DNA from: a phage
Sequence record: PZ386973.1
Strand: one strand, 5' to 3'
DNA: 64,000 nt
How positions within the stretch are numbered: position 1 is the first letter of the stretch; every line of letters begins with the position of its first letter. The translations under genes were made by a program, and so were the position numbers. This document shows, in pieces, positions 5,114 to 60,527 of this stretch. The notes under the pieces are model-generated. The model ran no database searches and was not told the origin of the DNA. It saw only the letters and a program-made list of their open reading frames with translations.

Positions 5114-6991
5114 TTATTTAGCTCGAATATCCTGATGTTTCACTCTGCCCATCACCTCGTGCTGTTTGCCGGGGTTAAATGGACGAGCACCTGGATTTCC
5201 AAGATACCCACAAACTCGACGAGTTACTTCAAGAGTTTCGGGGTCATGATTACCACAGATAGGGCACTTAAATCCATCTTCGGATGCTATTGTTTCACCT
5301 AAGAATCCACATTTACCACAAGAATCCACTGGAGTATTAATACCGAAGTAATGAACCTTACTAGCAGCATAATTAATAACCCATTCCAGTGCATCTGGGA
5401 ATCGTTTCATATCCGGTAGTTCCACATAGGAAATGCATCCACCAGAAGCAATCGGCGTAAAATTAGATTCATAGTCGAACTTCACGTTTGGAGCAACCTT
5501 ACGCTCCACATCTAGGTGGTGCGAGTTAGTGTAGTAACCTTTACTAAGAATATCTTCATGCTCCGGGAAATATTCACGATCTAAACGGCAGAAACGATCA
5601 CATAAGGATTCAGATGGTGTAGCATACAGACTATAGCCTAACTGAGTCTCTTCCTTCTTCTGATCCACTCTATCCCGCATATATTGTAGAACACGTTGTA
5701 CAAACTTAATACAGGTCTCGGACATTGTATCTACATCTTTGCCAAACATAAATTGTAGCATCTCATGGCAACCAATATATCCCAGAGATACAGAAGCACG
5801 GTTATAGAAATGATCAAATACATATTCATCAGGCCCCAAGCGTAGTCCAAAGGCTCCTGACATATAGAGGATGGGTGCGGCTTTAGCTTGAATGTATTTT
5901 AAGCGATCAACTCTCCACTCCAGTGCTTTAAGCGCGGTATCCACACGTAGCTCAAGCAAATCAAAGAATAGATCAATGTTCCCTTCAGCTTCGATAGCAA
6001 TTCTAGGCAAGTTTACAGAAACAACACCTAAGTTATTACGACCGGCAGTTTCTCCATCTTCTGCAGCAGCTAGGAACGAACGGCAGCCCATAGAAACTTT
6101 ATAGTCACCAGTAACTTCCACAACCTTATCATAGCTGATGTAATCAGGATACATACGTTCAGCAGTACATTTCATAGCTAACTTCTTGATGTCATAATTA
6201 ACATCCCCTGGTTTCATATTTACGCCATCACGAAGTACAAATACCAGTTTCGGGAAGATAGCTGTACGTTTATTGATACCTAAACCATCCATGCGTACTT
6301 TCAGTATTGCTTTCTGTACTAGACGTGCTTCCCAAGAAGTTCCTAGACCAAAACCAAAGGTAATAAATGGACTCTGACCATTAGAGTTGAACATGGTATT
6401 GATTTCATATTCTAAACCCTGACAAGCGTCATAGACTTCTTTTTCAGTCATCTCCGTAGCCATTACGGATGCTTTAGCTTCATCCTTAGTCCAACGTTTT
6501 GCAAACGCATGATTTTTGTCATAGGATTTACGAACATAAGGGGCTAATACTTCATCAAGGCGATCTACAGAAGTACCACCATACTGATGGGAGCTAACCT
6601 GAGTAATAATTTGAGCAGTAATAGCCGCCGCAGTAGTGATAGAGTTTGGAGTGCTAATTTCAGCATTACCAACTTTCATACCATTCTTCAACATATCTTC
6701 CAGAGCTACCAGACAACAGTTAGTCATGCCTAATGCAGCATAATCAGCATCATGGAAATGAATATCCCCAATCATATGAGCATTTCGAATCTGAATTGGC
6801 ATTTCTTCTAGAATTAGATACTTACTCAATTCACCTGCAAGCATATCCCTTTGTGTAGGGAAACGTTCTGAGGGTTTATTGGCATTATTAAATAGCAGTT
6901 CTTCATCTGCTGACCCTTCGATAATCTCTTTGCAGTTTCTAATTAACGCCTGCATTTCTTTATATTTTAGTTCTTCATTACGATTCATCAC
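5114..6991 (-). CDS. nrdD: anaerobic ribonucleoside-triphosphate reductase (class III)
   Basis: 625 aa; C-terminal glycyl-radical motif RRVCGYLG preceded by CGKCGF...CPICG zinc ribbon. Confidence 0.88.
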   Translation of the reverse strand: MMNRNEELKYKEMQALIRNCKEIIEGSADEELLFNNANKPSERFPTQRDMLAGELSKYLILEEMPIQIRNAHMIGDIHFHDADYAALGMTNCCLVALEDMLKNGMKVGNAEISTPNSITTAAAITAQIITQVSSHQYGGTSVDRLDEVLAPYVRKSYDKNHAFAKRWTKDEAKASVMATEMTEKEVYDACQGLEYEINTMFNSNGQSPFITFGFGLGTSWEARLVQKAILKVRMDGLGINKRTAIFPKLVFVLRDGVNMKPGDVNYDIKKLAMKCTAERMYPDYISYDKVVEVTGDYKVSMGCRSFLAAAEDGETAGRNNLGVVSVNLPRIAIEAEGNIDLFFDLLELRVDTALKALEWRVDRLKYIQAKAAPILYMSGAFGLRLGPDEYVFDHFYNRASVSLGYIGCHEMLQFMFGKDVDTMSETCIKFVQRVLQYMRDRVDQKKEETQLGYSLYATPSESLCDRFCRLDREYFPEHEDILSKGYYTNSHHLDVERKVAPNVKFDYESNFTPIASGGCISYVELPDMKRFPDALEWVINYAASKVHYFGINTPVDSCGKCGFLGETIASEDGFKCPICGNHDPETLEVTRRVCGYLGNPGARPFNPGKQHEVMGRVKHQDIRAK

Positions 6992-43117: not shown

Positions 43118-43707
43118 TGAAGGTTAAATTCTGGTCAGACTTGCACTTAGACCACCCTGGAGCACTACGTTTCCGTCCGTGGTTTAAGAACATGAAAGAG
43201 CACGATGAGTATATTCTAGATACTTTATCCAAGCATATTGGTAAACGAACAAAACTTATTTTGCTAGGAGATATTGCAGTAGGTCGTGAAGGTCTGGCCA
43301 AATTAAAGTCGGTTATCCACAATGTCCCTAATCAACTCATTATGGGTAATCATGATGCGGAGCGTCAAGGACTGAGTATCAGGGACTTAGCGGAAGTTTA
43401 TGACGATATTCAAGCTCTAGGCAAACAGACTGGAGGTGGCAAAAAGTTTTGGCTATCTCACTGCCCTTTGCACCCTAATGAACTTCGTGGCAAACTAAAT
43501 ATTCACGGACATGTACATACTACTTCTTTACGTGATCCACGTTATATTAATGTCTCATTTGAAATGAGTAGAACTCCAATTCCACTAGAGGATATTGTGT
43601 CTGGTAAGTTTACTAGTTACGATAGAGTGGTTAATTGTACTACCGGCGAGGTATTACAAATAGGAGAAGACGTAGCTGCTGTATTGCGTGGCGATATAAA
43701 TGTCTAA
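43114..43707 (+). CDS. calcineurin-like metallophosphoesterase
   Basis: SDLHLDHP, LLGDIAVG, GNHD and HGHVH motifs. Confidence 0.6.
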   Translation: MMKVKFWSDLHLDHPGALRFRPWFKNMKEHDEYILDTLSKHIGKRTKLILLGDIAVGREGLAKLKSVIHNVPNQLIMGNHDAERQGLSIRDLAEVYDDIQALGKQTGGGKKFWLSHCPLHPNELRGKLNIHGHVHTTSLRDPRYINVSFEMSRTPIPLEDIVSGKFTSYDRVVNCTTGEVLQIGEDVAAVLRGDINV

Positions 43708-49482: not shown

Positions 49483-49835
49483 AATCTCATAGATTAAAAA
49501 CAACTCTTGTTTTGAACTCTAGGGGCGATGATTATTACACTTAGTATTACGTCTATACGTTGCGACAGCACGAGTATAGATCTAATTACTAAGTCTTCCG
49601 TAATACTCACGCGCCCCACGAGTAAGCTCTCATGAAATGGGGGGACTATTTACTTTTAAAATATATGAAAATATTTAAAGGCAATATCTGTGTTCAAGAT
49701 GGTACACCTGTTGCCGCTCTTCTGCTAGGATGGCACAACACTTTCTTCTAGACTCCTAAGTTTATCACGAAATACCACACTTCTAGTGGGCGGTTCTCCT
49801 AAGTTTCTAGGAACATATACTAGGCGGTTAATACA

Positions 49836-49880
49836 GGGCGGTTATAGGGAGGGCGGTTATAGGGAGGGCGGTTATTTCTA
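49836..49880. repeat. tandem repeat, 3 copies of GGGCGGTTAT(A)GGGA
   Basis: Three adjacent copies read directly. Confidence 0.8.
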
Positions 49881-49917
49881 GAAGACATTTTTTGAAAACA
49901 CATTTCCAGAAATTACT

Positions 49918-50517
49918 GTCGGATTTGCACACTGCATTTCTAGAAATTTATGGTCGGATTTGCACAAACGCCTAAGTTTTTAGGAACATATAATCTCTTG
50001 AAAATAGCAGCATTATTTCGGGCCGAAGGCCCATGATTGCCTGAGTTTTTAGAGCCACAGAAATTTTCCCTTGTCAAGCTATTTTGCCACATTTAGCTAA
50101 TAAAATTTTACTTTTTCTGCACCTATCTCAAATCTTCTCCAATTATCTCAACTCTTCCCCAAAATCCCGGCAAATCTGGTGCTCCGCACCAACCATGCGC
50201 CCACATCCCTCTAGTCCCCAAAATTTCTTCGTTCTCTCAACTTCTCTCCAAACCTATACAATCACACACCCTCTAATCGAAGTCATAAAAATCTTGTCGG
50301 ATTCGCACATCTTAATCCTAGAAAAACCGTGTCGGATTTGCACATACCCCACAGGATTCGAACGCAGTTCGTGATTGCTGGAGTTTTTGGGAAAATTCAT
50401 TGTCGGATTCGCACACTATAAAAATTTTTAGGGTCGGATTTGCACACTACCAAAAATTGTCGGATTCGCACATACACGCCAGCACGTAACCCGTGGAGCA
50501 AATGTCGGATTTGCACA
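49918..50517. repeat. iteron array: 8 direct copies of GTCGGATT(T/C)GCACA
   Basis: Copies at 49918, 49963, 50296, 50331, 50402, 50433, 50459, 50504, all same orientation. Confidence 0.85.
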
Positions 50518-50522
50518 AAAGC

Positions 50523-50700
50523 GCAGGGCAATTGCCCTGCTAGTTTGAATGCGAATAAAAATGAGAATCATTATCATTTAAAAAGCGGAATGCGAATGAG
50601 AATCATTATCATTTACGAAAGGGAATGAGAACTATTCAGGAAGTGAAACGATTCTCATTTAGATAGTGAAATGCGAATGATAATGATTCGCATTTAAAAA
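50523..50700. repeat. 18-bp palindrome GCAGGGCAATTGCCCTGC plus direct and inverted copies of a GAATGCGAATGAGAATCATTATCATTTA unit
   Basis: Palindrome 50523-50540; repeat copies around 50547-50615 and inverted or palindromic copies 50646-50696. Confidence 0.75.
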
Positions 50701-50727
50701 CGGAAGTGAGAAACACTGTTATTTAAG

Positions 50728-50819
50728 TTATCCACAGACTTATCAACAGCACGATTTGACTTGACAAAATCCTAGCCATTTTGAGGCGTTATTAACAGAC
50801 TTATCCACAGCTTATCCTA
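50728..50819. promoter_or_regulatory. cluster of DnaA-box-like 9-mers (TTATCCACA and variants)
   Basis: TTATCCACA at 50728 and 50801; variants TTATCAACA, TTATTAACA, TTATCCTAC. Confidence 0.6.
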
Positions 50820-50835
50820 CTGTATAAATATACAG
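50796..50835. repeat. left arm of a 40-bp inverted repeat (partner 54682-54721)
   Basis: CAGACTTATCCACAGCTTATCCTACTGTATAAATATACAG; reverse complement matches the right arm at 39 of 40. Confidence 0.8.
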
Positions 50836-50986
50836 TATTCCTACGCAGTGAATAGTTCTAATATAGCGTTAAAACGTCCTAGATCGCATTCTAACGCGTT
50901 TAATTTTGGTGGGGATACTAAAACAAGGGGGTATTTATCTGGAGGGAGAAAAACGGGGATCAGATCCCCGTCGATTATTAGAAAAG

Positions 50987-51100
50987 AGGGCAATTATCCC
51001 GCTTTGCCATTTCGCGCCACTCATCCTGATGCCTAGACTTGCGACGGCGTACTAAAAACCGTTTATACCAGTGATTAAACCATCGTTTCATAAATCCTCC
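50987..51100 (-). CDS. small basic protein
   Basis: ATG after GAGGAGG; 37 codons; below track threshold. Confidence 0.3.
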
Positions 51101-51291
51101 TCAGGTAGTCGATGCGTGATCTTCTCCTCTTCCCCATAGGAATCGACCAAATGTTGATAATAACCATCGGCATCATAAATCACTTTATCATATTCGCCAC
51201 GCTCGACCGCTTGCCGATTCTCAGGTGTATCCGGCACATAGAAAACATCAACCATTGTGGTAGTTTTGGTCACAATAATTTTATTGCTCAT
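51088..51291 (-). CDS. hypothetical acidic protein
   Basis: Track ORF. Confidence 0.4.
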   Translation of the reverse strand: MSNKIIVTKTTTMVDVFYVPDTPENRQAVERGEYDKVIYDADGYYQHLVDSYGEEEKITHRLPEEDL

Positions 51292-51514
51292 AATAACGCT
51301 CCGTTATTAAAAATCCCCATATATTCCCGGCCAAATTTTACTAGTAACATAAGTTACTATCCCGGCAACAATTACGCTATAAACTATTAATAAGGTAAAC
51401 ATTAAACCAGACATAATAACTCCTAGTAAATATATTTTTGCCAATAGTGGCGAACGTTATCGCCACCAGCGGAATCATTAGCTGCCTCAGCATTACCAAC
51501 GAAAATATATAATC

Positions 51515-51874
51515 TCATTGTGCCACCTTTCGGAATGCTGTTTCAATACTATCCGCAGTGGATTGAATATATGCGCCTTTCATTATCAGGCGCTCAGTGC
51601 ACACCTTACGGAAGATATTAATAAAATCATCTTCATTTTCTGCGATTAATGCCTCCCCCATGACCTGAATATCACAAGATGCGAAAGTCAAAAATTGAAA
51701 CGCTAGTTCACGGGCAACGACCGCATTGATTTTATAATGCGCCTTGCCCTCATAAATATTAATAACGCCCTTGTAAGCCGGGGAAAGCTGATTTAAGTAG
51801 TTTGCTAACACTGCCGGACGGCAATTAGTAACAAAGCGATTGCCTTCATAAATTATCATTTGCATAGCTCCCAA
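51515..51874 (-). CDS. hypothetical protein
   Basis: Track ORF. Confidence 0.45.
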   Translation of the reverse strand: MGAMQMIIYEGNRFVTNCRPAVLANYLNQLSPAYKGVINIYEGKAHYKINAVVARELAFQFLTFASCDIQVMGEALIAENEDDFINIFRKVCTERLIMKGAYIQSTADSIETAFRKVAQ

Positions 51875-52101
51875 ATAGTTCCGCCGATAATCATTAGCTG
51901 ACTAATGATTATCAGAATAAAACCGATTGAAGGCAGGACGCCCCAATATTGGAACGCCCTTTTAATTTGTTGAATCATTTGTTAGCCTCCCAATTAGATA
52001 GCCAGATAATAACATAAAGATCCCCAGTAAAAGGGGATCATTTTTAAATAAGGTGGCGGTAAAACCGCCAACCATTGCAAGGGTAATAATAATAACGCTT
52101 T

Positions 52102-52314
52102 TCATAGTACCCCACGAAAGGCCGCGTAAAAGGTGGCAAAGTGTTTAACCGTTTCAGCGATCACGTTGCCGCGCTTATCAAATTTCTTTTCGGTAACACG
52201 AAAGGCATTTTTGTTACGTGCTACATATTCGATTTTACAATCAGGACGCTCAAACGTGTTTACATCCACCAGCTTAAAGCCTTTCGAACGTGCAAGAGAA
52301 ACGTTGCGAATCAT
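52102..52314 (-). CDS. hypothetical basic protein
   Basis: Track ORF. Confidence 0.4.
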   Translation of the reverse strand: MIRNVSLARSKGFKLVDVNTFERPDCKIEYVARNKNAFRVTEKKFDKRGNVIAETVKHFATFYAAFRGVL

Positions 52315-52317
52315 TTT

Positions 52318-52470
52318 TTATTCTCCTTTACTAGTCATGCAGCCCAGCAGATAAGAAAATGCAGCGATACCCGCGCCAATAATAACCGCGTGGACACCGA
52401 AAGCTATTGCAAAAAGGGATAAAATAGCGCCCAAGATACCTGCTAGAATAGCTCGAAAAATAACCATTTT
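52318..52470 (-). CDS. small hydrophobic membrane peptide
   Basis: 50 codons, two hydrophobic segments; one of several sub-threshold TM mini-ORFs between 51303 and 52470. Confidence 0.35.
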   Translation of the reverse strand, partial: KMVIFRAILAGILGAILSLFAIAFGVHAVIIGAGIAAFSYLLGCMTSKGE

Positions 52471-52513
52471 CATTCTCCTAGTTAGTGGGGCGAAAGTAAC
52501 GCCCCATTATTAA

Positions 52514-52746
52514 TTACATTAAAACAATTTTAGCGGCTTGTTTTTTGGTGCAATGTTCCGCTTTCAGGGTATCCAGCAAAAAGCCAGCCGTTTGCTGATC
52601 GATTTTATCGGCATTATATAGTTCCTGAATGGTGTTATAGGTTTTAGCAATGCCGAACTCCTGCACCATTTCATGAATGATGACGCGATTAGATACCCAA
52701 CCTTGCGCGGTGAACAGATGACTAGCAGAAGAATATGCAACCATTT
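52514..52746 (-). CDS. hypothetical protein
   Basis: Internal ATG with GGAGG RBS. Confidence 0.4.
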
Positions 52747-52811
52747 TAAGCCTCCAAATTTTTGGGAAAATTTTCAACCGTCCTCAAACGGTGTAAAGGC
52801 ATTATAACAAA

Positions 52812-52838
52812 AAAGGCCGCCATAATAGGCGGCCTTTA
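52812..52838 (-). terminator. intra-operon terminator/attenuator hairpin
   Basis: AAAGGCCGCCATAATAGGCGGCCTTT with a T-run on the minus strand. Confidence 0.45.
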
Positions 52839-52850
52839 CAAAACTTTACA

Positions 52851-53345
52851 TTAAACTACTTGTAAGGATTCAACATTGAAACATCGTTTTAATTCGTCAT
52901 GCAAAACAGCGTATTCCTCCCATCGGGTACTATCAGGAATATAAACAAGCTGTTTTAATCGGTTTGCATATATTACCGCTTTGTTATCAATTATCTCGAC
53001 GCCACCATATTTAATAACTAATTTCATGACGGAATTAATAGGATCGCCGCCGTTTACATATGTGCCGGACTTACTCAATTGATAATGATAAAGGCTTGCA
53101 TACACGTTGTCATTTTCAACCCATTCGCCAGTATCCTCATCTTCATACCCATCGCTACCAAAACGAGAAGCATTATCAATAGCCATTTCCTGAGCGAAAG
53201 CGTCGAGATCTGTACCAGCAGGAACAAAATATTCTTCGGTGTTCCCTTCCCCGCAGTACCCAGTATGGCAATCGACCAAAATGATCATATCGTGTTTTGC
53301 CGTGCTCACTTCTCCCAGTGAGAAGCCATATTTTTCCTCAGCCAT
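52851..53345 (-). CDS. hypothetical acidic protein
   Basis: Track ORF. Confidence 0.5.
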   Translation of the reverse strand: MAEEKYGFSLGEVSTAKHDMIILVDCHTGYCGEGNTEEYFVPAGTDLDAFAQEMAIDNASRFGSDGYEDEDTGEWVENDNVYASLYHYQLSKSGTYVNGGDPINSVMKLVIKYGGVEIIDNKAVIYANRLKQLVYIPDSTRWEEYAVLHDELKRCFNVESLQVV

Positions 53346-53410
53346 TTATTATCCTCCTATTAATTAATCAGGGAATAGTAAAGCGGGGAAACAATCCCCG
53401 CTAGATATTA

Positions 53411-54415
53411 TTATTCGCTTTCGGTGCTAGTGGTGAAGGTAGAAATATCGATACCTTTTACCATTTCATCAATCATTTCAGCGATGTTAAAACTTTGCAC
53501 CATTTCCAACATTGCCGCTTCCATAGCTGCCCCTGCTACCGCTTTCGCTTTCTGATTGCTTGGGGCATACTGGTCAACCGCTACGCTCAGCAGGTTGGCA
53601 ATTACTACTCGACCAATCGGCGTATCAATATAACCTTTAATCATGAACGGTGCTTTTTTAGCCGCTACTTTCGTAATTTGAGTCAGTGCAATTTTACCCG
53701 CTTCCAGTTTTGCAGCGTTTACAACAGCGGATTTATTAGCGGCAACAATATTAGCGATCTTGGTCATAGTATTTTTTCCTTTGTTTTCAGTAGTTTGAGT
53801 ATTAACGCTTTGAGTGTTAGAATTTACAACATGGTTTTCTGTATTGTCAACTGGTTTTAGCGTAAATCCAGCATTTGCAACATTTGATTCATTCCCATAC
53901 TCTAAATAATCGCTAGGGATCAACATGTTACCCGTTGACTTTTCAAAACACAAAACACCAGTTGTTTCTATTGCGTAACTATCCGCACCTTTATAGTTTG
54001 ATGATAGTTCACGCCAGATACTATTTAGTAACGATTCGACACTATCAAGCCTGATATTATTTATTTTTGTTGCTATTACCTGCTCTTTTTCTTGCACGTT
54101 ATATAATCGCGCAATGTAACCATTATTCGGCTCACTGTAACCAACAATGATAAAATCAATATCAGTTCCCCGACTGTTACGGAAAACGTGATAATCACGG
54201 TTGAAAATTACTAGTACCCTTGTCTGGTCTAGTAGTAATATGAAATCATTGACTGAATAATGAGTATCATTACTGTCTAAAATTTCATCATGAATCTTTT
54301 CAACCATGCTAGCGGTATGTTGTACACTTGCCGCGCTACTACCATCTAGCAGGTTGCGCAAACTACCCTTTACAATAGTTGCGTTTGCTGGTACTGCAAT
54401 TCTAGTAAAAGACAT
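53411..54415 (-). CDS. hypothetical two-domain protein with low-complexity linker
   Basis: Track ORF; first gene of the minus-strand cassette. Confidence 0.5.
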   Translation of the reverse strand: MSFTRIAVPANATIVKGSLRNLLDGSSAASVQHTASMVEKIHDEILDSNDTHYSVNDFILLLDQTRVLVIFNRDYHVFRNSRGTDIDFIIVGYSEPNNGYIARLYNVQEKEQVIATKINNIRLDSVESLLNSIWRELSSNYKGADSYAIETTGVLCFEKSTGNMLIPSDYLEYGNESNVANAGFTLKPVDNTENHVVNSNTQSVNTQTTENKGKNTMTKIANIVAANKSAVVNAAKLEAGKIALTQITKVAAKKAPFMIKGYIDTPIGRVVIANLLSVAVDQYAPSNQKAKAVAGAAMEAAMLEMVQSFNIAEMIDEMVKGIDISTFTTSTESE

Positions 54416-54681
54416 TCTCTTGTCTCCCTCGTTAATCGGTGAGTGAATGATAAAGGTATTTTCTTTCTAGGGGCAAATATTATTTTACCTTTTTATTTTC
54501 CTTGCCTAACGCCTAGTTTTATGCTAACCGCGCAGCGGTGCAATAAAGAGCAAACCACGGCGAAGCCACCAGGCCGACGCATCGAGGCTTTACTTTAATA
54601 TTACCCCACCGCATTTAGCTCGTTAGAAAGCGTTTTAGGCGGCCTAAAATTGATTGCAGTTGTTAACACTACCTTTTTACC

Positions 54682-54721
54682 CTGTATATTTATACAGTAG
54701 GATAACCTGTGGATAAGTCTG
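54682..54721. repeat. right arm of the 40-bp inverted repeat (partner 50796-50835)
   Basis: CTGTATATTTATACAGTAGGATAACCTGTGGATAAGTCTG. Confidence 0.8.
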
Positions 54722-54789
54722 TGTAAAACTCCTTATATCGCCGCCTATCGTGTCAAATTATTTTGTGCTGTGGATAACGTTGTGGATAA
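54699..54789. promoter_or_regulatory. cluster of DnaA-box-like 9-mers (TGTGGATAA orientation)
   Basis: TGTGGATAA at 54708, 54769, 54781; TAGGATAAC at 54699. Confidence 0.6.
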
Positions 54790-55150
54790 CTTAAATGATA
54801 GTGGTTCTCACTTAGGCCGATAGTTTCTTATAGTTATTATTTCTATCGGTTACGATTTCTTATAATTATTATTTCTCACTAATTTATATGTATATTATAT
54901 ATTATAGAATAGTTAGTTGGCTAATGAGATTTTCCGTGATTAATAGTCTGCTAATAGTTTAAGCCGTTACAATCCACCAGCATGATTATCATCCTAGCAA
55001 TTATTAGTCTGCTATCTTTCCGATGCATACTAACAAATAAAAGTCAATTAATTTAGTTCATAAAATAAGTAGTTATCCACTGGAAAATAAAAGTCAAGTG
55101 GATAACTAGGAAAATTTCATTTTTGCTTTTGGGGATAAGTTATCAACAAG
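54790..55150. promoter_or_regulatory. AT-rich region with an inverted DnaA-box pair (origin-like)
   Basis: Long A/T-rich tracts; TTATCCACT at 55073 and AGTGGATAA at 55097; no ORF. Confidence 0.4.
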
Positions 55151-55493
55151 GCTAGAATGCGCCTAAAACGCCCTAGAATGCGATGAAAGTTTTAGTCATG
55201 CCATTGCATTGCCTACCCTCGTTTATCTCTACCACGAGCTTTTTAGGTTTTGTCAAGTAGGGCAAAGCAAATATAAATGAAAAAATTACTTGCCTATCTG
55301 CTATGTTTTGTGGTATTCGCGCGCCCGTTTCTTTTAATTTTAGTGCGCCGCGCCCAGGTCGCCGCACGCCGTCCGGTGAATCGTGTCTTTACATTTCTTT
55401 ACAAAAATAAGGTTGCGCCATTTTCGGGAATCCCCTATTATTTATCACGTAGGGCGGCAATGACGAACTACACGGCGGGAAGTTTACCGCCAC

Positions 55494-55532
55494 GCTCTTT
55501 AAAAATTGGGTACATCTTAAAGCCTATCGGCG
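55494..55532. repeat. left arm of an imperfect inverted repeat flanking ORF 55564-55767
   Basis: TGGGTACATCTTAAAGCCTATCGGC core; partner 55773-55813. Confidence 0.65.
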
Positions 55533-55563
55533 GTAAACTTATACATTATAAGGAATCGACGAT

Positions 55564-55767
55564 ATGAAACAAACTTTATTGATCACTGGCAAGCCTAGCA
55601 AGGCACTAGATAGCAAAACAAAAAATTTGTTGACAGTAGCGCAAAGATCGGTAAAATACCGATTCAAGCAATACAAGAAAGGCCGCCAGCAAGGTCTAGA
55701 AATGATCTGGCGAAATATTATGATTGACTTGAAAGAAAATCATAAAAAATCTCAAAAAATTGTTTGA
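55564..55767 (+). CDS. small basic protein flanked by inverted repeats
   Basis: Track ORF; AAGGA RBS; Lys/Arg-rich. Confidence 0.4.
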   Translation: MKQTLLITGKPSKALDSKTKNLLTVAQRSVKYRFKQYKKGRQQGLEMIWRNIMIDLKENHKKSQKIV

Positions 55768-55772
55768 CAACC

Positions 55773-55813
55773 TAGCCGATAGGTTTTAAGATGTACCCAG
55801 TTCGATAAGAGCG
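55773..55813. repeat. right arm of the inverted repeat flanking ORF 55564-55767
   Basis: GCCGATAGGTTTTAAGATGTACCCAG core. Confidence 0.65.
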
Positions 55814-55997
55814 ATAACTTGATAAAATTTGACGGTCGGTGCTTACCATAATGCATCCCGCCCCCTAACTGGGATATAGCGGCCTACGTGGAGTTCTTTA
55901 AATTGATTTAACTGGCGAGCGGATTGTTACTTATTACCTGCTACTGTTTTCTAGCAGGTAATGCGGAACAATCCTCAAATAACTAGGAGTTTATATT

Positions 55998-56249
55998 ATG
56001 CAAAACGTTATCACCGCGCCGAAAGTTGGTCAGTCTGTTTTTATTCCTTTCGTTACCAAAACGGATGAATTAACCGGAAAGGCCGAACGTATTAAAGGTG
56101 CGGCGCTTATGCCGTTTGATACAATCGACGCGGTATATGCTGAAAATGAACGCAGTAACAACGGCAAACCCGTTTTTAACGTTCGTGTTAAATCCGGCGA
56201 CGTTGTAAAGGTTGTTCAACGCAACGAAAAATGGGAAGCTGTATTATAA
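55998..56249 (+). CDS. hypothetical protein
   Basis: Track ORF after AGGAG. Confidence 0.45.
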   Translation: MQNVITAPKVGQSVFIPFVTKTDELTGKAERIKGAALMPFDTIDAVYAENERSNNGKPVFNVRVKSGDVVKVVQRNEKWEAVL

Positions 56250-56350
56250 TCTAGTGTTAACTTTATATTCCCCTGAAATATGGGGAATATAACGATTAAC
56301 ATTAAGTTAATCATTAAATCCCTTAAATTAAACAAATAGGAGTTTTTACC

Positions 56351-56758
56351 ATGACTAACGTTAAAACCGCAAAATTCGCTTGGAATGAAGAAAACACTCA
56401 GAAAGCTGTTTCTATGTACCAGCAGTTAATCAATGAAAACGGTTTAGATTTCGCAAATAGTGACGGCCTGAAAGAAATTGCAAAAGCAGTTGGCGCGGCT
56501 TCTCCCGTATCCGTTCGGTCAAAATTGACCAGCGCGAAAGCGTATCAGAAAAGCGATAAGCCGCGCAAAGTTGGCGGTGGTAGCTCAATCCGCAAAGCGC
56601 ATTATGTACGCGTTATTGCTAAACATGCTATTGATTCCGGCATTATCAAAGACGCCGATGATCTGGCAAGCCTTGAAAGTGCTAAACTTGAAACGCTGGA
56701 CGCCGTGGCGCAACTGTTAGGCGTTGCCGATGAAGTGAAACAAGCCGCAGGAGAATAA
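56351..56758 (+). CDS. pre-early-region protein, possible A2 counterpart
   Basis: Track ORF after AGGAG; sits immediately upstream of the A1-like gene; assignment by position and size only. Confidence 0.4.
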   Translation: MTNVKTAKFAWNEENTQKAVSMYQQLINENGLDFANSDGLKEIAKAVGAASPVSVRSKLTSAKAYQKSDKPRKVGGGSSIRKAHYVRVIAKHAIDSGIIKDADDLASLESAKLETLDAVAQLLGVADEVKQAAGE

Positions 56759-56846
56759 TTATATACATTGCCCTTCCTAGTGGGAGGGCAATAATATAAC
56801 TGTTTAGCGATAGTTATTTTCTTCCCTTAAATCAGGAGTTTTAAAA

Positions 56847-57044
56847 ATGATTTTCTTTCCTACTGAGTCATTAATTTTAGGCTTGTTTATTATGGCGGCC
56901 TCGTTATTACTCGCTTATTTTCAAAATGATTTAGATTCATATTATTTTAAACGTAAATCTAAGTTAGCAAAGCGTTTAGGTCTGATTTGTTTTATTGCCG
57001 CCGTTGCTTGTGGTGTTAGTTCTAGCCTTATGCCTTTAAATTAA
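56847..57044 (+). CDS. small membrane protein
   Basis: Track ORF with hydrophobic helices. Confidence 0.3.
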   Translation: MIFFPTESLILGLFIMAASLLLAYFQNDLDSYYFKRKSKLAKRLGLICFIAAVACGVSSSLMPLN

Positions 57045-57118
57045 TGTTGCAAATTATAACGCCTATTATTCAAGGCGTTATATTTGGCAATATTGCCGTT
57101 ATTAACTTAATCCCTTTA

Positions 57119-58798
57119 ATGGAGTTTATTACTATGATTATTTCCGCAGAAAAACAAACCGTTATCCTGAAAATGGCCGCTGACTTTAATTTCTATGGTA
57201 AACGTCTGCGCGCCACTAAACTGGAGGTCTGCGACGATATATCAAAAGCGGTCTACGATACAACAAAACACTCGACCGCTATCTGCGACTGGCTGGAAGC
57301 AAATAAACCAGTTAAACCGAAAGCGGCGAAAGTAGCAAAAGCCATTAAAAACGATGAGCGTCCAGAAGCGGCGGGGATTGTTTCTAGCACGGTTGAACAG
57401 TGGGAAGTAAAACAAGGCAAACGCTTTATTATTACGTCGATTCAGAATAATACTTTCCCGCATAAAAACTTTTTAGCCTCATTGGAAAAATTCGCTGAAT
57501 ATATCGGTGCTGATTTGCTTGTTTCTAAGTATATTTATAATAAAAACGGCTTCCAAAATGGCGAGGGTGCGGATGGAATCAAATATGATTCCGCGTTCGA
57601 TAAATATATTTGCAGCAAAAACGTGTTTTTAAATAACCGCCGTTTTGCTTTCATGGCTGAAATTAATGTTTTGCCAACAGCAGACTATCCGCTTTCTGGA
57701 TTCGCTGAAACTGCAACGGCGCTTAATCTGGAAGGTCTGGCAATCGGTCATGCTAAAATCACCGCTGAAAGCGTGCCAGCTCTCAAAGGTGAAGTAGTAC
57801 GCCGCATGTATTCAACCGGAACGGCAACGCTCAAAAACTACATTCAGCAGAAAGCAGGGCAAAAAGCGGAAGCGCTTCATAACTTTGGTGCGCTGATTGT
57901 CGAGTTCGACGAGGACGGGGAGTTTTTTGTTCGCCAGCTTGAAACTATGGATGAAAGCGGGGTGTTTTATGATCTGAATGTTTGCGCTACTCCCGCCGGA
58001 TGCTATGAAACAACGGGGCATGTTTTAGGCTTGCAATATGGTGACATACACGCCGAAAAATTGGATGATGATTGTGCCGTTGCGTCATGGGCTGGCGAAA
58101 ATAGCTTGCTTGATATTCTTAAACCAAAATATCAGTTTGTGCATGATGTGCATGATTTTACATCGCGCAACCATCACAACCGCGCTTCGGGTGTATTCCT
58201 AGCAAAACAATATGCCGCCGGACGTGATAAAGTTCTGGATGATCTTATCGATACGGGGCGCGTGCTGGAATCGATGGAACGAGATTTTAGCCAAACAATC
58301 ATTGTTGAATCTAATCACGATCTGGCGCTATCCCGCTGGCTTGATGATCGTAATGCTAACATTAAAGACGATCCAGCAAACGCGGAACTATATCACCGCC
58401 TGAATGCCGAGATTTATGGAGCTATTGCAGAAAAAGACGATACTTTCAACGTGCTAGATTATGCATTGCGCAAGGTTGCAGGTTGTGAGTTTAACGCCAT
58501 TTTCCTAACAACTGACCAATCATTTAAAATTGCAGGCATCGAGTGTGGCGTACACGGTCACAACGGCATTAACGGCAGCCGTGGCAATCCTAAACAATTT
58601 AAGAAATTGGGCAAATTGAACACCGGACACACTCACACCGCCAGCATTTACGGCGGGGTATATACCGCTGGCGTTGCTGGTAGTCTCGATATGGGTTACA
58701 ACGTTGGCGCGTCAAGCTGGACGCAAACGCATTTAATTACCTATGCAAACGGGCAGCGCACTTTGATCGATTTTAAGAATGGTAAATTCTTTGCGTAA
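57119..58798 (+). CDS. A1: A1-like pre-early protein with metallophosphoesterase domain
   Basis: GDIHA, GHNG and GHTHT metallophosphatase motifs; about 555 aa from the internal ATG; matches T5 A1 as recalled. Confidence 0.6.
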   Translation: MEFITMIISAEKQTVILKMAADFNFYGKRLRATKLEVCDDISKAVYDTTKHSTAICDWLEANKPVKPKAAKVAKAIKNDERPEAAGIVSSTVEQWEVKQGKRFIITSIQNNTFPHKNFLASLEKFAEYIGADLLVSKYIYNKNGFQNGEGADGIKYDSAFDKYICSKNVFLNNRRFAFMAEINVLPTADYPLSGFAETATALNLEGLAIGHAKITAESVPALKGEVVRRMYSTGTATLKNYIQQKAGQKAEALHNFGALIVEFDEDGEFFVRQLETMDESGVFYDLNVCATPAGCYETTGHVLGLQYGDIHAEKLDDDCAVASWAGENSLLDILKPKYQFVHDVHDFTSRNHHNRASGVFLAKQYAAGRDKVLDDLIDTGRVLESMERDFSQTIIVESNHDLALSRWLDDRNANIKDDPANAELYHRLNAEIYGAIAEKDDTFNVLDYALRKVAGCEFNAIFLTTDQSFKIAGIECGVHGHNGINGSRGNPKQFKKLGKLNTGHTHTASIYGGVYTAGVAGSLDMGYNVGASSWTQTHLITYANGQRTLIDFKNGKFFA

Positions 58799-58851
58799 TT
58801 AAATTATTCCCTAGCGGCTTGAAATATAGCCGCTATTACAGGAGTCAAAAA

Positions 58852-59109
58852 ATGAAAGTTACATTACCCAAAACATTGGACGAAAAAGTATTCATTTCAC
58901 CGGATGAAATGGAATCTGATAAAGTTTACAGCTTCGGGCCTATCCTAGCCGCCAAAACTAATACGGATGGAATTATTACAGTCGATTATCGTGATAATGA
59001 TGTTGTCCCCTTTGACGATGATGACGCTTTTTATGAATGGTTGAGCGATAATAATTTACCCGTAAATGGTGAATTAACGCCGTATCAAATGCAAATTATT
59101 ATTAAATAA
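58852..59109 (+). CDS. hypothetical acidic protein
   Basis: ATG 58852 after CAGGAG. Confidence 0.4.
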   Translation: MKVTLPKTLDEKVFISPDEMESDKVYSFGPILAAKTNTDGIITVDYRDNDVVPFDDDDAFYEWLSDNNLPVNGELTPYQMQIIIK

Positions 59110-59147
59110 ATTAAATCCCCTATTAAACTAATTGGAGTTTTATAAAT

Positions 59148-59540
59148 ATGAAAAAGCAAAATATCCCATTCGATCGCGCTCAGTCCTCAATTGTTCTGGT
59201 TTATTCTAATGGCGAACGTTACCACGTCGAGGCGGGGCATGTTATTGATGACCTATTAGATTTCAATGACGCTGTGCAGGTTACTACCTTTGCCTATACA
59301 CAAGGCAAACTAACCAGCCATATTAAGGCAAAAGGCGTTTATGTTGACACGGTGAAACAAGAAACGATTATCATCGATGCCGTAAAATCCGGCCTAGCCT
59401 TTGCAGTTGTCGCGCCTTGCCTCGCTTGCCTTGATGATCAATTGATTAGTGCAAAGGTCTACACATGTGCGGGGATTCGTTCTAGCGTATCCGGTGAGGA
59501 TGTTAGTTTTATCGCTGATGCGTTGGCTTATGGTCTTTAA
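59148..59540 (+). CDS. hypothetical protein
   Basis: Track ORF. Confidence 0.45.
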   Translation: MKKQNIPFDRAQSSIVLVYSNGERYHVEAGHVIDDLLDFNDAVQVTTFAYTQGKLTSHIKAKGVYVDTVKQETIIIDAVKSGLAFAVVAPCLACLDDQLISAKVYTCAGIRSSVSGEDVSFIADALAYGL

Positions 59541-59627
59541 TAGTTGATTGAACACAGCCCGCTGATAAAGTATCATTAGTGGGCTGGATTGAATTAACTT
59601 AATCCCTTAAATGGAGAATGCAACAAA

Positions 59628-60362
59628 ATGAATCAAGTTAAAACGAATATTACCCGTAATTTCCCGCATATTTCCCGCGTTATGATTTGGGATCTGGACG
59701 GCACTATCATTAATTCTTTCCATCGTGTAGCGCCTTGTTTTGATAGCGAGGGCAATTTAGATTTAAATAAGTATAAAAATGAAGCCTGCAAACATCATTT
59801 AATAATGCAGGATTCATTATTGCCATTAGTTGAATATATGCGCCAGTGCATGAATGACGCTAACACGCTAAACATTATTTGCACCGCTCGACTAATGAGC
59901 AAATCAGATTATTATTTCTTGCGTAAACAAGGATTGCGAGGGCGTGGAAATAGTAATATCCGCGTGTTTTCCCGCGATACCCTGCACAAATACTTTAAAG
60001 CTGATAAGGTTAGCGAAATATACCACAGCAAGGACGCAGTATATAAAAGCCATTATTTTGAATTATTTAAACAATTATATCCGAACGCTGATTTTACAAT
60101 GATTGATGATCATAAAGGCGTGTTAGCGGCGGCGGCATCATACGGATTTAAAACGCTAGACGCGCAAGCCGTTAATGATATTCTATCAATCGGTGTTACA
60201 TTGATTGGTGAAACCTTTATTGATGAATCGCTCGACGATGATAATGATTATCAGTTCCTGGCCGACCGCCTGCAATTATGTTGGGAAGGTATGACCGAGG
60301 AAGAACGCGCAGAATATAGTTGCAGCCCGCAACAATATATTGAGAAATTAAAAGTTGCGTAA
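59628..60362 (+). CDS. dmp: HAD-family 5'-deoxyribonucleotidase-like protein
   Basis: MIWDLDGTIINS (DxDGT motif I); 244 aa; matches T5 dmp as recalled. Confidence 0.6.
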   Translation: MNQVKTNITRNFPHISRVMIWDLDGTIINSFHRVAPCFDSEGNLDLNKYKNEACKHHLIMQDSLLPLVEYMRQCMNDANTLNIICTARLMSKSDYYFLRKQGLRGRGNSNIRVFSRDTLHKYFKADKVSEIYHSKDAVYKSHYFELFKQLYPNADFTMIDDHKGVLAAAASYGFKTLDAQAVNDILSIGVTLIGETFIDESLDDDNDYQFLADRLQLCWEGMTEEERAEYSCSPQQYIEKLKVA

Positions 60363-60380
60363 TAATTAAAGTTGAAATAG

Positions 60381-60417
60381 TTTCATCCTGCAATTAAAAT
60401 GGTTGCAGGATGAAACA
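60381..60417. terminator. bidirectional terminator hairpin
   Basis: GTTTCATCCTGCAA...TTGCAGGATGAAAC 14-bp stem between convergent genes. Confidence 0.55.
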
Positions 60418-60527
60418 ATTACCCTGCTAATAGTAACGGGGTGTGGCGGTTAGCAGACTAAGTATTTTCCCCCAACCCACTGGACACACCTCCATGTGTA
60501 ATCTTATGAAATTTGGCAAAAGGTTAA

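What the first reader, a model, noticed from the sequence alone, without database searches (positions are those of the whole stretch)
54780..55150. Origin-like module: AT-rich DNA flanked by inverted DnaA boxes
TGTGGATAA repeats at 54708, 54769 and 54781 are followed by a very AT-rich tract and an inverted pair TTATCCACT (55073) and AGTGGATAA (55097). This is the architecture of a DnaA-dependent unwinding element. It could recruit or titrate host DnaA, or serve as a phage origin.
Basis: inference. Interest (0 to 1): 0.6.

Follow-up and report, generated by a model that had tools for sequence, protein, structure and literature searches.

The report
T5 pre-early DnaA/LexA-box repeat module
The DnaA boxes are real, but they belong to an already described, still untested repeat module in the first-injected DNA of T5-like phages rather than to a replication origin, and next to them sits a consensus LexA (SOS) operator that I could not find reported.

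Summary
There are three perfect DnaA boxes at 54708, 54769 and 54781. The window holds 6 perfect boxes against 0.6 expected by chance. The adjacent AT-rich tract is the least stable duplex in the whole window. One-mismatch boxes lie at 55073 and 55097.

The window is a Tequintavirus, roughly Salmonella phage phB7. The site lies in the terminal repeat, which is the first-step-transfer (FST) DNA. It sits between the two divergent pre-early operons.

The three boxes belong to a 132-bp module at 54682-54813. This is Davison's "IRC-spacer-IRD". Its inverted twin at 50704-50835 lies in the injection-stop region. The DnaA boxes there were reported in 1987 and compared across 25 phages in 2020, so the finding is already known.

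The origin reading is not supported:
- The AT tract is a variable-number repeat that T5 lacks.
- The region has no 13-mers and no GATC sites.
- The 55073/55097 pair is one of two alleles.
- A viable T5 mutant deletes the homologous region.
- T5 origins were seen internally, and T5 encodes its own candidate initiator.

New here: each arm also carries a near-consensus LexA operator, plus Fur-box-like repeats. Perfect DnaA boxes with LexA-type sites recur in Proteus, Aeromonas and Vibrio T5-like phages whose DNA no longer aligns. They are absent from non-T5 phages that carry an A1 homologue.

The most likely role is a landing pad for host proteins that acts in DNA-transfer pausing or pre-early control. 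This is unproven.

The parts
54682..54813 (.). A2-side arm of the large inverted repeat (homologue of T5 'IRC-spacer-IRD', Repeat Region 2). It carries the three perfect boxes of the finding.
   Evidence: Inverted repeat I1. It is 83% identical to T5 6098-6228. It is present in all 31 unique close relatives and is far more conserved than its flanks.
54781..54789 (-). DnaA box slot 1 (TTATCCACA), the outer strong box.
   Evidence: Perfect in 22 of 29 unique A2-side arms and 24 of 30 inner arms.
54769..54777 (-). DnaA box slot 2 (TTATCCACA here; often degenerate in relatives). It lies 3 bp from slot 1, head to tail.
   Evidence: Perfect in 16 of 29 A2-side arms and 0 of 30 inner arms.
54720..54728 (-). 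DnaA box slot 3 (TTTTACACA; fits TTWTNCACA).
   Evidence: It fits the consensus in 27 of 29 A2-side arms.
54708..54716 (-). DnaA box slot 4 (TTATCCACA), the inner strong box. It starts 73 nt from slot 1, the same distance as in the other arm.
   Evidence: Perfect in 24 of 29 and 18 of 30 arms.
54697..54705 (-). Fifth, degenerate box-like element (TTATCCTAC) that bridges slot 4 and the palindrome.
   Evidence: Read. TTATCCTAC occurs in 23 of 29 and 19 of 30 arms.
54680..54699 (.). LexA-operator-type palindrome CCCTGTATATTTATACAGTA (core CTGT-N8-ACAG).
   Evidence: It scores 22.1 bits on a matrix built from 19 E. coli LexA sites recalled from memory. Those sites score 13.4-24.0, and this is the second-best position in the window. 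It is nearly invariant among relatives. CTGTAT-N4-ATACAG gave 3 matches at up to one mismatch against 0.16 expected, two of them exact.
54791..54813 (-). Conserved GTGAGAAnCACTATCATTTAAG element next to slot 1. It is a degenerate copy of the Fur-box-like repeat of the injection-stop region.
   Evidence: (I7, I20).
54815..54880 (.). AT-rich variable-number tandem repeat (~32-nt unit, 2 copies here). It overlaps the least stable duplex of the window (54819-54920).
   Evidence: Family D18. Copy number runs from 0 to about 8 among relatives, and the repeat is absent in T5-type phages.
54881..54960 (.). Conserved AT-rich block containing a promoter-like site on the - strand (TAGCCA-18-TATAAT, 54923..54894).
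   Evidence: Any promoter function is inference only.
55073..55148 (.). Variable allele holding four one-mismatch DnaA-like boxes: 55073 (+), 55097 (-), 55130 (-), 55140 (+).
   Evidence: In T5, L019, L026 and L031 it is replaced by a box-free allele. This stretch corresponds to T5 'Repeat Region 1'.
54416..54500 (-). Promoter region of the operon that starts with the T5.011 homologue, placed by homology to the T5 promoter annotated at 6411-6489.
   Evidence: The T5 promoter upstream of gene 011 is described as experimentally characterised in bioRxiv 10.64898/2026.04.02.716235.
53411..54415 (-). T5.011 homologue (DUF7566), first gene of the variable pre-early operon that the two arms bracket.
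50704..50835 (.). Inner arm of the inverted repeat (homologue of T5 IRD'-spacer-IRC', in the injection-stop region). Boxes lie at 50728, 50740, 50789, 50801 and 50812 (+).
50818..50837 (.). LexA-operator-type palindrome TACTGTATAAATATACAGTA of the inner arm.
   Evidence: It scores 25.7 bits, the best position in the window and above all 19 reference sites.
50535..50712 (.). Repeats with Fur-box-like 15-mers: TGAGAATCATTATCA at 50562 and 50597, TGATAATGATTCGCA at 50678.
   Evidence: (D2, I3, I4).
49910..50519 (+). Eight iterons TGTCGGATT(T/C)GCACA that straddle the inner boundary of the terminal repeat (about 50026).
   Evidence: D1. The boundary is placed by mapping to T5.
56351..56758 (+). 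A2 (DNA-binding protein, needed for second-step transfer).
57044..58798 (+). A1 (needed for host DNA degradation and second-step transfer).

Best explanation
The finding is one of two inverted copies of a conserved non-coding module in the first-step-transfer DNA (the terminal repeat) of a T5-like phage.

The module is an ordered row of recognition sequences for host DNA-binding proteins:
- a strong DnaA box with a weaker neighbour 3 bp away;
- a fixed spacer;
- a second weak/strong pair (slot 1 to slot 4 is 73 nt, start to start, in both arms);
- a half box;
- a consensus LexA operator.

Fur-box-like repeats lie alongside the inner copy.

This DNA is in the cell before any phage protein is made, and the transfer pause occurs without protein synthesis. 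The module therefore most likely works by being bound at once by resident host DnaA, probably LexA, and possibly Fur. The resulting nucleoprotein complex marks or holds the entering DNA. The inner copy sits just inside the point where transfer pauses. The copy in the finding lies between the two divergent pre-early operons and acts as an auxiliary, dispensable partner; it may also insulate or tune pre-early transcription. It is not a replication origin.

**Shown:**
- the identity, position and conservation of the module;
- conservation of the motifs beyond alignable DNA;
- the absence of origin hallmarks.

**Inferred:**
- that DnaA and LexA actually bind;
- that binding contributes to pausing, anchoring or regulation.
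For: **Identity and position**
- The region is about 90% identical to T5-like phages and 100% identical to Salmonella phage phB7 over the module.
- It maps into the T5 left terminal repeat between T5.011 and the A2/A1 operon.
- The element is the IRC-spacer-IRD / IRD'-spacer-IRC' repeat. Its DnaA boxes were described in 1987 and compared across 25 phages by Davison.

**Conservation among close relatives**
- Both arms are present in every close relative, and 534 phage records match, mostly at two places each.
- The two arms share only motif blocks: the GTGAGAA element, the box pairs, TTGACA, and the box pair plus palindrome. The spacers between these blocks differ between arms but are conserved within each arm.
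- The arms of one phage are no more alike than arms of different phages (0.752 against 0.749, p = 0.13). The constraint therefore falls on the motifs, not on arm-to-arm pairing.

**Conservation of motifs beyond alignable DNA**
- Klebsiella, Pantoea, Proteus, Aeromonas and Vibrio T5-like phages have A1 down to 31-34% identical. They still carry perfect TTATCCACA boxes and a CTGT-N8-ACAG palindrome at the same two positions.
- Of 20 such loci, 19 have at least 2 perfect boxes and 18 have at least one LexA-type site of 17 bits or more in the 10 kb upstream of A1. The DNA downstream of the A1 start in these loci has none of either.
- The 13 control loci (A1-homologue loci not classed as T5-like) have almost none.

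**Position relative to the pause**
- The estimated shear point of the first-step DNA (T5 ~9618) maps to about window 50630, roughly 75 nt beyond the inner arm.
- Davison cites an old report of a second, minor first-step band at about 5.8 kb, close to the arm that is homologous to the finding.
Against: - No experiment has tested binding or function. Skutel et al. 2023 say so explicitly, and a 2026 paper still calls the mechanism poorly understood.
- T5 with the homologous arm deleted is viable, with only smaller plaques. That mutant lacks many genes too, so this copy is not essential.
- Protein bound to DNA already inside the cell does not by itself explain why DNA still in the capsid stops moving.
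- T5's first major nick (annotated at T5 9748) lies at the same border and is an alternative cause of the pause.
- From my own knowledge, T5 plates on recA strains, so release of a LexA block by RecA-driven cleavage cannot be obligatory.
- I found no conserved promoter overlapping the LexA-type site.
Confidence: 0.6

Rival explanations
1. Phage replication origin. DnaA bound to the boxes opens the adjacent AT-rich tract, and replication starts there.
For: - The region holds clustered high-affinity boxes in head-to-tail phasing.
- The least stable duplex of the 64-kb window starts about 30 bp from slot 1.
- Electron microscopy reported multiple origins in T5 (as cited), so a minor origin here cannot be strictly excluded.
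Against: - The AT tract is a variable-number repeat that T5-type phages lack.
- The distal inverted boxes are allele-specific.
- There are no 13-mers and no GATC sites.
- The inner arm has the same boxes but no comparable AT tract.
- The homologous region is deleted in a viable T5 mutant.
- The element lies in the terminal repeat, which is expressed before any replication gene enters.
- Origins were mapped near the centre of the genome (as cited).
- T5 has its own candidate initiator, D2, whose amber mutants make no DNA.
Confidence: 0.05
2. Transcriptional control element. DnaA and LexA bound between the divergent pre-early promoters, and at the far end of the variable operon, repress, activate or insulate pre-early transcription. 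This would couple it to the host's replication or SOS state.
For: - The arm lies in the roughly 1-kb non-coding gap between the two divergent operons. The other arm lies just past the terminator of the 011-017 operon, so the pair brackets that operon.
- Promoter-like sites are 3-fold enriched in 54300-55700 (13 found against 4.0 expected).
- DnaA and LexA are both known transcription regulators (established knowledge).
- In this phage, a TTAACA-16-TATATT promoter-like site overlaps the LexA-type site.
Against: - That promoter-like site is not conserved in T5-type or Klebsiella-type arms.
- The T5 promoter annotated upstream of gene 011 (T5 6411-6489) starts about 180 nt from the arm, and P-H22 and P-D/E20 lie more than 1 kb away, so none overlaps it.
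- The inner arm has no known promoter nearby.
- Host DNA is degraded within minutes, so sensing of host state would have only a short window.
Confidence: 0.2
3. The motifs are read by phage proteins (A2, A1/A2 or the terminase) for restart of transfer, cutting or joining of the terminal repeats, or packaging. On this view their likeness to host DnaA and LexA sites is coincidental.
For: - A2 is a DNA-binding protein of unknown specificity that is required for second-step transfer.
- The module occurs only in phages with the T5-type A1/A2/dmp arrangement.
- Other conserved blocks in the module, such as GTGAGAAnCACT and the CTAGAAcGC/TCTAAGCG repeats, match no host site that I recognise.
Against: - The 9-mer and the 16-mer core stay exactly at the host consensus across phages whose A1 is only 31-43% identical. 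This is easier to explain by an unchanging host protein than by a diverging phage protein.
- The variants tolerated in slot 3 (TTTTACACA, TTTTGCACA, TTATTCACA) are those allowed by the DnaA consensus TTWTNCACA.
- The pause happens without phage protein synthesis.
Confidence: 0.1
4. Recombination linkers. The two conserved arms mainly serve as homology for swapping the hypervariable gene cassette between them among co-infecting T5-like phages.
For: - Gene content between the arms is poorly conserved while the arms are conserved, and the distance between arms varies (1.7-4.3 kb in the loci).
Against: - Motif-level conservation persists in genera whose DNA no longer aligns.
- Box spacing is kept exactly in both arms.
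- Arms in inverted orientation would invert the cassette rather than exchange it.
Confidence: 0.05

Closest known systems
T5 first-step-transfer repeat module IRC-spacer-IRD (Repeat Region 2) and its twin IRD'-spacer-IRC' in the injection-stop region (Heusterspreute 1987; Wang 2005; Davison 2015; Davison 2020, bioRxiv 10.1101/866236)
   Same: - Same genomic position.
- Same inverted twin 3.85 kb away.
- Same paired boxes 3 bp apart with a fixed spacer.
- 83% identity to T5 6098-6228.
   Different: This phage has all four consensus slots filled in the A2-side arm; T5 lost one box there. [quoted passage not shown] It carries a 2-copy AT-rich tandem repeat and the allele with four extra box-like sites at 55073-55148. 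The published descriptions I could read do not mention the LexA-type operator, the Fur-like repeats or the Vibrio and Aeromonas relatives.
E. coli oriC and other DnaA-dependent origins (for example P1 oriR, pSC101)
   Same: Both have arrays of 9-mer DnaA boxes, with strong boxes flanking weaker ones, in head-to-tail phasing of about one helical turn. Both have an easily melted AT-rich stretch next to the outer box.
   Different: - No 13-mer repeats and no GATC cluster.
- The AT tract is not conserved.
- No initiator gene or plasmid-type iterons nearby.
- It lies in a terminal repeat between promoters.
- The homologous DNA is dispensable in T5.
Non-origin DnaA-binding loci (datA, DARS1/2) and DnaA boxes in promoters (dnaA, nrdAB, mioC, uvrB)
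   Same: Both are clusters of DnaA boxes that act without starting replication. uvrB also combines DnaA and LexA sites (from my own knowledge).
   Different: No sequence similarity to any of 5,426 E. coli genomes. The element is phage-borne, duplicated in inverted orientation, and tied to a two-step DNA delivery system.
SOS operators (LexA boxes) of E. coli, such as dinD, sulA, recN and colicin promoters
   Same: TACTGTATAAATATACAGTA differs from the textbook consensus TACTG(TA)5CAGTA at one position. It scores above all 19 reference sites.
   Different: It is not placed over a conserved promoter. It lies in a strictly lytic phage, next to DnaA boxes.

Membership tests
T5-type FST inverted-repeat module (IRC-spacer-IRD / IRD'-spacer-IRC') | Lies in the terminal repeat of a T5-like phage, in the non-coding gap between the divergent pre-early operons. 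| tested here: met
   The terminal repeat spans about 50026-60486, and the arm lies between the T5.011 homologue and the A2/A1 operon.
T5-type FST inverted-repeat module (IRC-spacer-IRD / IRD'-spacer-IRC') | Has an inverted partner of about 131 bp near the inner end of the terminal repeat. | tested here: met
   (I1: 132 nt, 79% complementary). Both arms were found in every related locus with enough flank.
T5-type FST inverted-repeat module (IRC-spacer-IRD / IRD'-spacer-IRC') | Two pairs of DnaA or DnaA-like boxes, 3 bp apart within a pair, with a fixed spacer between pairs. | tested here: met
   Boxes lie at 54781/54769 and 54720/54708. Slot 1 to slot 4 is 73 nt in both arms.
T5-type FST inverted-repeat module (IRC-spacer-IRD / IRD'-spacer-IRC') | Sequence homology to the T5 element. 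| tested here: met
   83% identity over 132 nt to T5 6098-6228, and 75% to T5 9411-9542.
DnaA-dependent replication origin (oriC type) | Cluster of DnaA boxes. | tested here: met
DnaA-dependent replication origin (oriC type) | Conserved AT-rich unwinding element with repeated 13-mer-type motifs next to the boxes. | tested here: not met
   An AT-rich, least-stable tract is present in this phage. It is a variable-number repeat that T5-type relatives lack, and it has no 13-mer-like match.
DnaA-dependent replication origin (oriC type) | GATC (Dam/SeqA) cluster, as in enterobacterial origins. | tested here: not met
   There are 0 GATC sites in 54681-55160, against a window average of 3.3 per kb.
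DnaA-dependent replication origin (oriC type) | Replication starts at the site, or the site is needed for replication. | not testable with these tools
   Indirect evidence only. The homologous region is deleted in a viable T5 mutant. Origins were reported as internal or central (cited).
LexA operator (SOS box, Gammaproteobacteria type) | 16-nt core CTGT-N8-ACAG with an AT-rich centre, scoring within the range of known sites. | tested here: met
   The sites score 25.7 and 22.1 bits against 13.4-24.0 for 19 reference sites. The matrix was built from sites recalled from memory. The pattern is enriched over chance.
LexA operator (SOS box, Gammaproteobacteria type) | Overlaps a promoter that it represses. 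| tested here: inconclusive
   A promoter-like site overlaps it in this phage but is not conserved in T5-type or Klebsiella-type arms.
LexA operator (SOS box, Gammaproteobacteria type) | Bound by LexA. | not testable with these tools
   This needs a gel shift, footprint or ChIP.
Fur box | Match to the 7-1-7 motif TGATAATnATTATCA. | tested here: inconclusive
   One-mismatch copies lie at 50562 and 50597. The window total is only weakly above chance (4 against 0.91 expected; 2 of 100 shuffles reach 4). The same variant, TGAGAATnATTATCA, recurs near the modules of distant T5-like phages: 2.05 per 10 kb upstream against 0.49 downstream, and 0.09 in controls. The constant G in place of T may point to a different binding protein.

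The most novel reading that the evidence does not exclude
The injection-stop architecture of all T5-like phages (Demerecviridae) is a composite landing pad for several abundant, invariant host DNA-binding proteins: DnaA, LexA and perhaps Fur. It is present twice, in inverted orientation. The LexA-type operator next to the DnaA boxes is conserved from Salmonella phages to Vibrio phages, and I did not find it in the literature I could search. It would be a previously unrecognised part of the signal that pauses or times DNA transfer, or that gates pre-early expression by host state (DNA damage, replication status, iron).
Probability: 0.3. Interest if true: 0.7.

Novelty: already known. Interest (0 to 1): 0.4.

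Why it matters
Why T5 DNA stops after 8% has entered, and how it restarts, has been open since the 1960s. The DnaA boxes are the only published molecular lead, and they have never been tested.

This analysis removes the origin reading. It shows that the constraint falls on the host-protein motifs themselves, because they persist across genera whose DNA no longer aligns.

It also adds a second host site, a consensus LexA operator, and possibly a third (Fur-like). These give cheap genetic tests in dnaA, lexA and fur host mutants and in box-scrambled phages. T5-like phages are widely used for biocontrol, and they are sensitive to restriction and CRISPR only in this first-entering DNA, so its control elements have practical weight.

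Tried and rejected
- **Plasmid or plasmid-prophage origin.** The iterons plus DnaA boxes suggested this at first. There was no match in 72,556 plasmids, and the region is plainly T5-like.
- **Derived from a host locus.** There was no meaningful similarity in 5,426 E. coli genomes.
- **Structured RNA.** No Rfam family reached its gathering score in 49500-56500. All nine weak hits are far below threshold.
- **Cruciform or arm-to-arm pairing.** The spacers differ between arms, and own-arm identity equals cross-phage identity.
- **LexA-regulated promoter.** The overlapping promoter-like site is not conserved.
- **E. coli-type unwinding element.** There are no 13-mers and no GATC sites.
- **Flanking proteins as a clue.** A2 has no Pfam hit, and the neighbours are DUFs.
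- **Literature not reached.**
  - Searches for LexA or SOS sites in T5-like phages found nothing relevant.
  - Davison 2015 and Bourguignon 1976 are not held in the library, so I cannot exclude an older mention of the palindrome as an SOS box.
  - A search for T5 growth on dnaA hosts found nothing.
Full report
**1. What is in the sequence**

The three perfect boxes are at 54708, 54769 and 54781, written as TGTGGATAA on the + strand.
- The one-mismatch inverted pair TTATCCACT / AGTGGATAA is at 55073 and 55097.
- Two further one-mismatch boxes are at 55130 and 55140.
- A perfect TTATCCACA occurs 6 times in the 64-kb window against 0.60 expected, and none of 100 shuffles reached 6.
- The stretch 54790-55130 is 72% A+T against 60.7% overall.
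- The 50-bp and 100-bp windows starting at 54861 and 54819 are the least stable duplex of the whole window.

The observation therefore holds.
- a 16-nt palindrome, CTGTATATTTATACAG (54682-54697), ten bases from the first box;
- a mirror-image box cluster at 50728, 50740 and 50801.

The two clusters are the arms of a 132-nt inverted repeat, 50704-50835 / 54682-54813, 79% complementary and 3.85 kb apart.

**2. Where this is**

The region 49500-56500 is about 90% identical to hundreds of T5-like phages and has no plasmid match. The module itself is 100% identical to Salmonella phage phB7, a Tequintavirus.

Mapping to T5 (NC_005859) puts T5 position 1 at window 60486 and the inner end of the terminal repeat near 50026. 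The finding therefore lies in the terminal repeat, which is the first-step-transfer DNA. This is the 8% of the genome that enters first and carries the pre-early genes.

The finding sits in the roughly 1-kb non-coding gap between two divergent operons:
- On one side is the T5.011 homologue (53411-54415, - strand) and its operon.
- On the other side is the operon that holds A2 (56351-56758) and A1 (57044-58798).

The other arm lies just past the end of the 011-017 operon, in the region that the T5 record annotates as the injection stop signal.

**3. It is a described element**

Davison (bioRxiv 10.1101/866236) names the two arms IRC-spacer-IRD (T5 Repeat Region 2) and IRD'-spacer-IRC' (Repeat Region 3).
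- He reports that DnaA boxes were seen there in 1987.
- He shows that 25 T5-like phages carry about eight boxes, in pairs 3 bp apart with a constant spacer.
- He proposes that membrane-bound DnaA holds the entering DNA.
- He also argues that an origin is unlikely, because T5 origins map near the centre of the genome and the replication genes arrive only with the second step.

Later papers repeat the idea and state that experimental tests are lacking.

**4. Tests of the origin reading**

- **The AT tract is not conserved.** An alignment of 31 unique close relatives shows that 54815-54880 is a tandem repeat of a ~32-nt unit. Copy number runs from 0 to about 8, and T5-type phages have none.
- **The distal pair is one of two alleles.** The segment with the 55073/55097 pair and the 55130/55140 boxes is one of two alternative alleles. 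T5, L019, L026 and L031 carry unrelated sequence there with no boxes.
- **Origin hallmarks are missing.** The 480 nt from 54681 to 55160 hold no GATC, against a window mean of 3.3 per kb. They also hold no match to the E. coli 13-mer.
- **The homologous region is dispensable in T5.**
  - A 2026 preprint (10.64898/2026.04.02.716235) describes a viable T5 mutant deleted from hegG to gene 017.
  - I mapped its junction primers to T5 5359-5393 and 9158-9186, so the deletion removes the homologous arm at T5 6098-6228.
  - The phage grows and makes smaller plaques.
- **T5 has its own candidate initiator.** This is the D2 helicase, and D2 amber mutants make no DNA. Multiple internal origins were seen by electron microscopy.

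Taken together, I put the origin reading at about 5%.

**5. What is conserved, and how**

The arm is much more conserved than its flanks. I aligned 29 unique A2-side arms and 30 unique inner arms in the same orientation. The two arm types share only discrete blocks:
- GTGAGAAnCACTnTCATTTAAG;
- box slot 1, then 3 bp, then slot 2;
- GCAC...TTGACA;
- slot 3, then GAC, then slot 4;
- GG, then TTATCCTA, then the palindrome.

The 22-nt stretch between TTGACA and slot 3 differs completely between the arm types, yet it is conserved within each type.

| Slot | Perfect TTATCCACA, A2-side arms (of 29) | Perfect TTATCCACA, inner arms (of 30) |
|---|---|---|
| 1 (outer, strong) | 22 | 24 |
| 2 (weak) | 16 | 0 |
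| 3 (weak) | 8 | 6 |
| 4 (inner, strong) | 24 | 18 |

The common slot-3 variants in the A2-side arm (TTTTACACA, TTTTGCACA) still fit the DnaA consensus TTWTNCACA.

Within a genome the two arms are no more alike than arms taken from different phages (0.752 against 0.749; permutation p = 0.13). There is therefore no gene conversion between arms and no selection for arm-to-arm pairing. The constraint is on the motifs.

**6. Distant relatives**

I used A1 to fetch first-step regions from other genera:
- Klebsiella phage KpGranit (A1 72% identical);
- Pantoea phage AAS21 (66%);
- Proteus phage Stubb (42%);
- Aeromonas phage AhSzq-1 (34.5%);
- Vibrio phage BBMuffin (33%);
- IMG/VR contigs down to 31%.

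Their non-coding DNA no longer aligns with the window. Each still has perfect TTATCCACA boxes at the same two places. The boxes are often in 3-bp-spaced pairs and sit next to a CTGT-N8-ACAG palindrome. In the Vibrio phage, for example, the sequence reads gagTTATCCACAaccTTATCCACCgcaaaaccaCTGTATATTTATACAG.

| Set | Loci | With 2 or more perfect boxes in 10 kb upstream of A1 | With at least one LexA-type site (17 bits or more) upstream |
|---|---|---|---|
| T5-like, distant genera | 20 | 19 | 18 |
| Control loci (A1 homologue, not classed as T5-like) | 13 | 2 | 2 |

The T5-like loci have no perfect box and no LexA-type site in the DNA downstream of the A1 start. The two control loci with hits are medium-sized contigs that may themselves be T5-like fragments. 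One environmental relative has 14 perfect boxes in 3.3 kb.

A recognition sequence that stays at the host consensus while the phage proteins diverge to about 30% identity points to invariant host proteins as the readers. This is an inference, not a demonstration.

**7. The palindrome is a LexA-type operator**

TACTGTATAAATATACAGTA (50818-50837) differs at one position from the textbook SOS box TACTG(TA)5CAGTA.

I built a weight matrix from 19 E. coli LexA sites that I recalled from the literature, so it is a lead rather than a curated test. The inner-arm site scores 25.7 bits and the A2-side site scores 22.1 bits. The reference sites score 13.4-24.0. These two sites are the top two positions of the window, and the next best scores 16.5 bits. 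CTGTAT-N4-ATACAG occurs 3 times at up to one mismatch, against 0.16 expected.

Davison's text calls these sequences palindromes (palC, palD) and does not mention LexA, SOS, Fur or Vibrio. Two full-text searches found no paper linking T5-like phages with LexA boxes. The 1987, 2005 and 2015 papers are not in the library, so prior notice cannot be excluded.

**8. Mechanism**

*Shown.* The element is a duplicated, ordered array of consensus host-protein sites in DNA that is inside the cell before any phage protein exists. The inner copy ends about 75 nt before the estimated shear point of first-step DNA (T5 ~9618, about window 50630).

*Inferred.* Resident DnaA, and LexA, bind at once and build a complex that helps to hold or mark the DNA at the pause, or that insulates and tunes pre-early transcription. 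The copy in the finding would be the auxiliary partner. This fits three observations:
- it is dispensable in T5;
- boxes have been lost from this arm in some phages;
- an old report describes a minor second first-step band near 5.8 kb (cited).

*Weak points.*
- Binding inside the cell does not by itself stop DNA that is still in the capsid.
- The first major nick of T5 (annotated at T5 9748) lies at the same border and is another candidate cause of the pause.
- From my own knowledge, T5 grows on recA hosts, so a LexA block that needs RecA-driven cleavage cannot be obligatory.
- No conserved promoter overlaps the operator.

I give 0.6 to the layered statement: a known host-factor landing pad that is not an origin and that acts in transfer pausing and/or pre-early control. 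Within that, I put about 0.7 on DnaA binding and about 0.35 on a direct role in the pause.

**9. Verdict**

- The element is already known.

The value added here has three parts:
- the origin reading is excluded with comparative and published genetic evidence;
- the constraint is shown to act at the level of the motifs across the family;
- a LexA-type operator, and possibly Fur-like sites, are added as testable parts of the T5 injection-stop architecture.

Noticed in passing
window 50818-50837 and 54680-54699: Near-consensus LexA (SOS) operators lie next to the DnaA boxes in both arms of the inverted repeat. They are conserved in Klebsiella, Pantoea, Proteus, Aeromonas and Vibrio T5-like phages. 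I did not find them mentioned in the literature I could search.
   Followed up: yes
window 50562-50576, 50597-50611, 50678-50692; also 60239-60253: Fur-box-like 15-mers (TGAGAATCATTATCA, one mismatch from TGATAATnATTATCA) lie in the injection-stop repeats, and a perfect TGATAATGATTATCA lies near the outer end of the terminal repeat, inside the dmp region. The same TGAGAATnATTATCA variant recurs near the modules of distant T5-like phages (2.05 per 10 kb upstream of A1 against 0.49 downstream, and 0.09 in controls). T5 receptors such as FhuA are Fur-regulated, which may or may not be relevant.
   Followed up: partly
window 54815-54880: An AT-rich tandem repeat of a ~32-nt unit (TTTCTTATAGTTATTATTTCTATCGGTTACGA). 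Copy number varies from 0 to about 8 among close relatives. It overlaps the least stable duplex in the window.
   Followed up: yes
window 49910-50519: Eight iterons, TGTCGGATT(T/C)GCACA, straddle the inner boundary of the terminal repeat (about 50026). Each contains ATTTGCACA, one mismatch from the DnaA consensus TTWTNCACA. The T5 major nick (T5 9748) maps to about window 50497, inside this array. They may be terminase or nicking signals.
   Followed up: no
window 54590-54680 and 50840-50930: The similarity between the arms continues in degenerate form beyond the 132 nt: CTAAAACGC..TTCTAACG..TAAAT..GGTGGGGTA. Related CCTAGAAcGC / TCTAAGCG / GGGGGT blocks follow the palindrome in Klebsiella, Pantoea, Proteus, Aeromonas and Vibrio phages. 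I recognise no known binding protein for them.
   Followed up: partly
L100 4400-7780 (IMG/VR contig 3300007965_000002) and L101: An uncultured T5-like relative (A1 34% identical) carries 14 perfect TTATCCACA boxes within 3.3 kb upstream of A1, together with a LexA-type site and Fur-like repeats. This is an extreme version of the same architecture.
   Followed up: partly
window 54960-55160 compared with L001 (T5) 5330-5420: There are two alternative alleles of this part of the non-coding region among close relatives. One has four DnaA-like boxes. The other has a CTTGAyTTTTAAAAGTCAAG palindrome and no boxes. In T5-type phages an HNH endonuclease gene with its own promoter is inserted just upstream.
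   Followed up: partly
window 43313-43321: This is the sixth perfect TTATCCACA of the window. It lies alone in the early region outside the terminal repeat and is compatible with chance (0.6 expected).
   Followed up: no
window 55493-55531 / 55775-55813: A 39-nt inverted repeat, 85% complementary, brackets the hdi (T5.008) homologue and the P-H22-like promoter (TTGACA-16-TAAAAT at 55630-55657). It is probably the IRA/IRA' pair of T5 Repeat Region 1.
   Followed up: no
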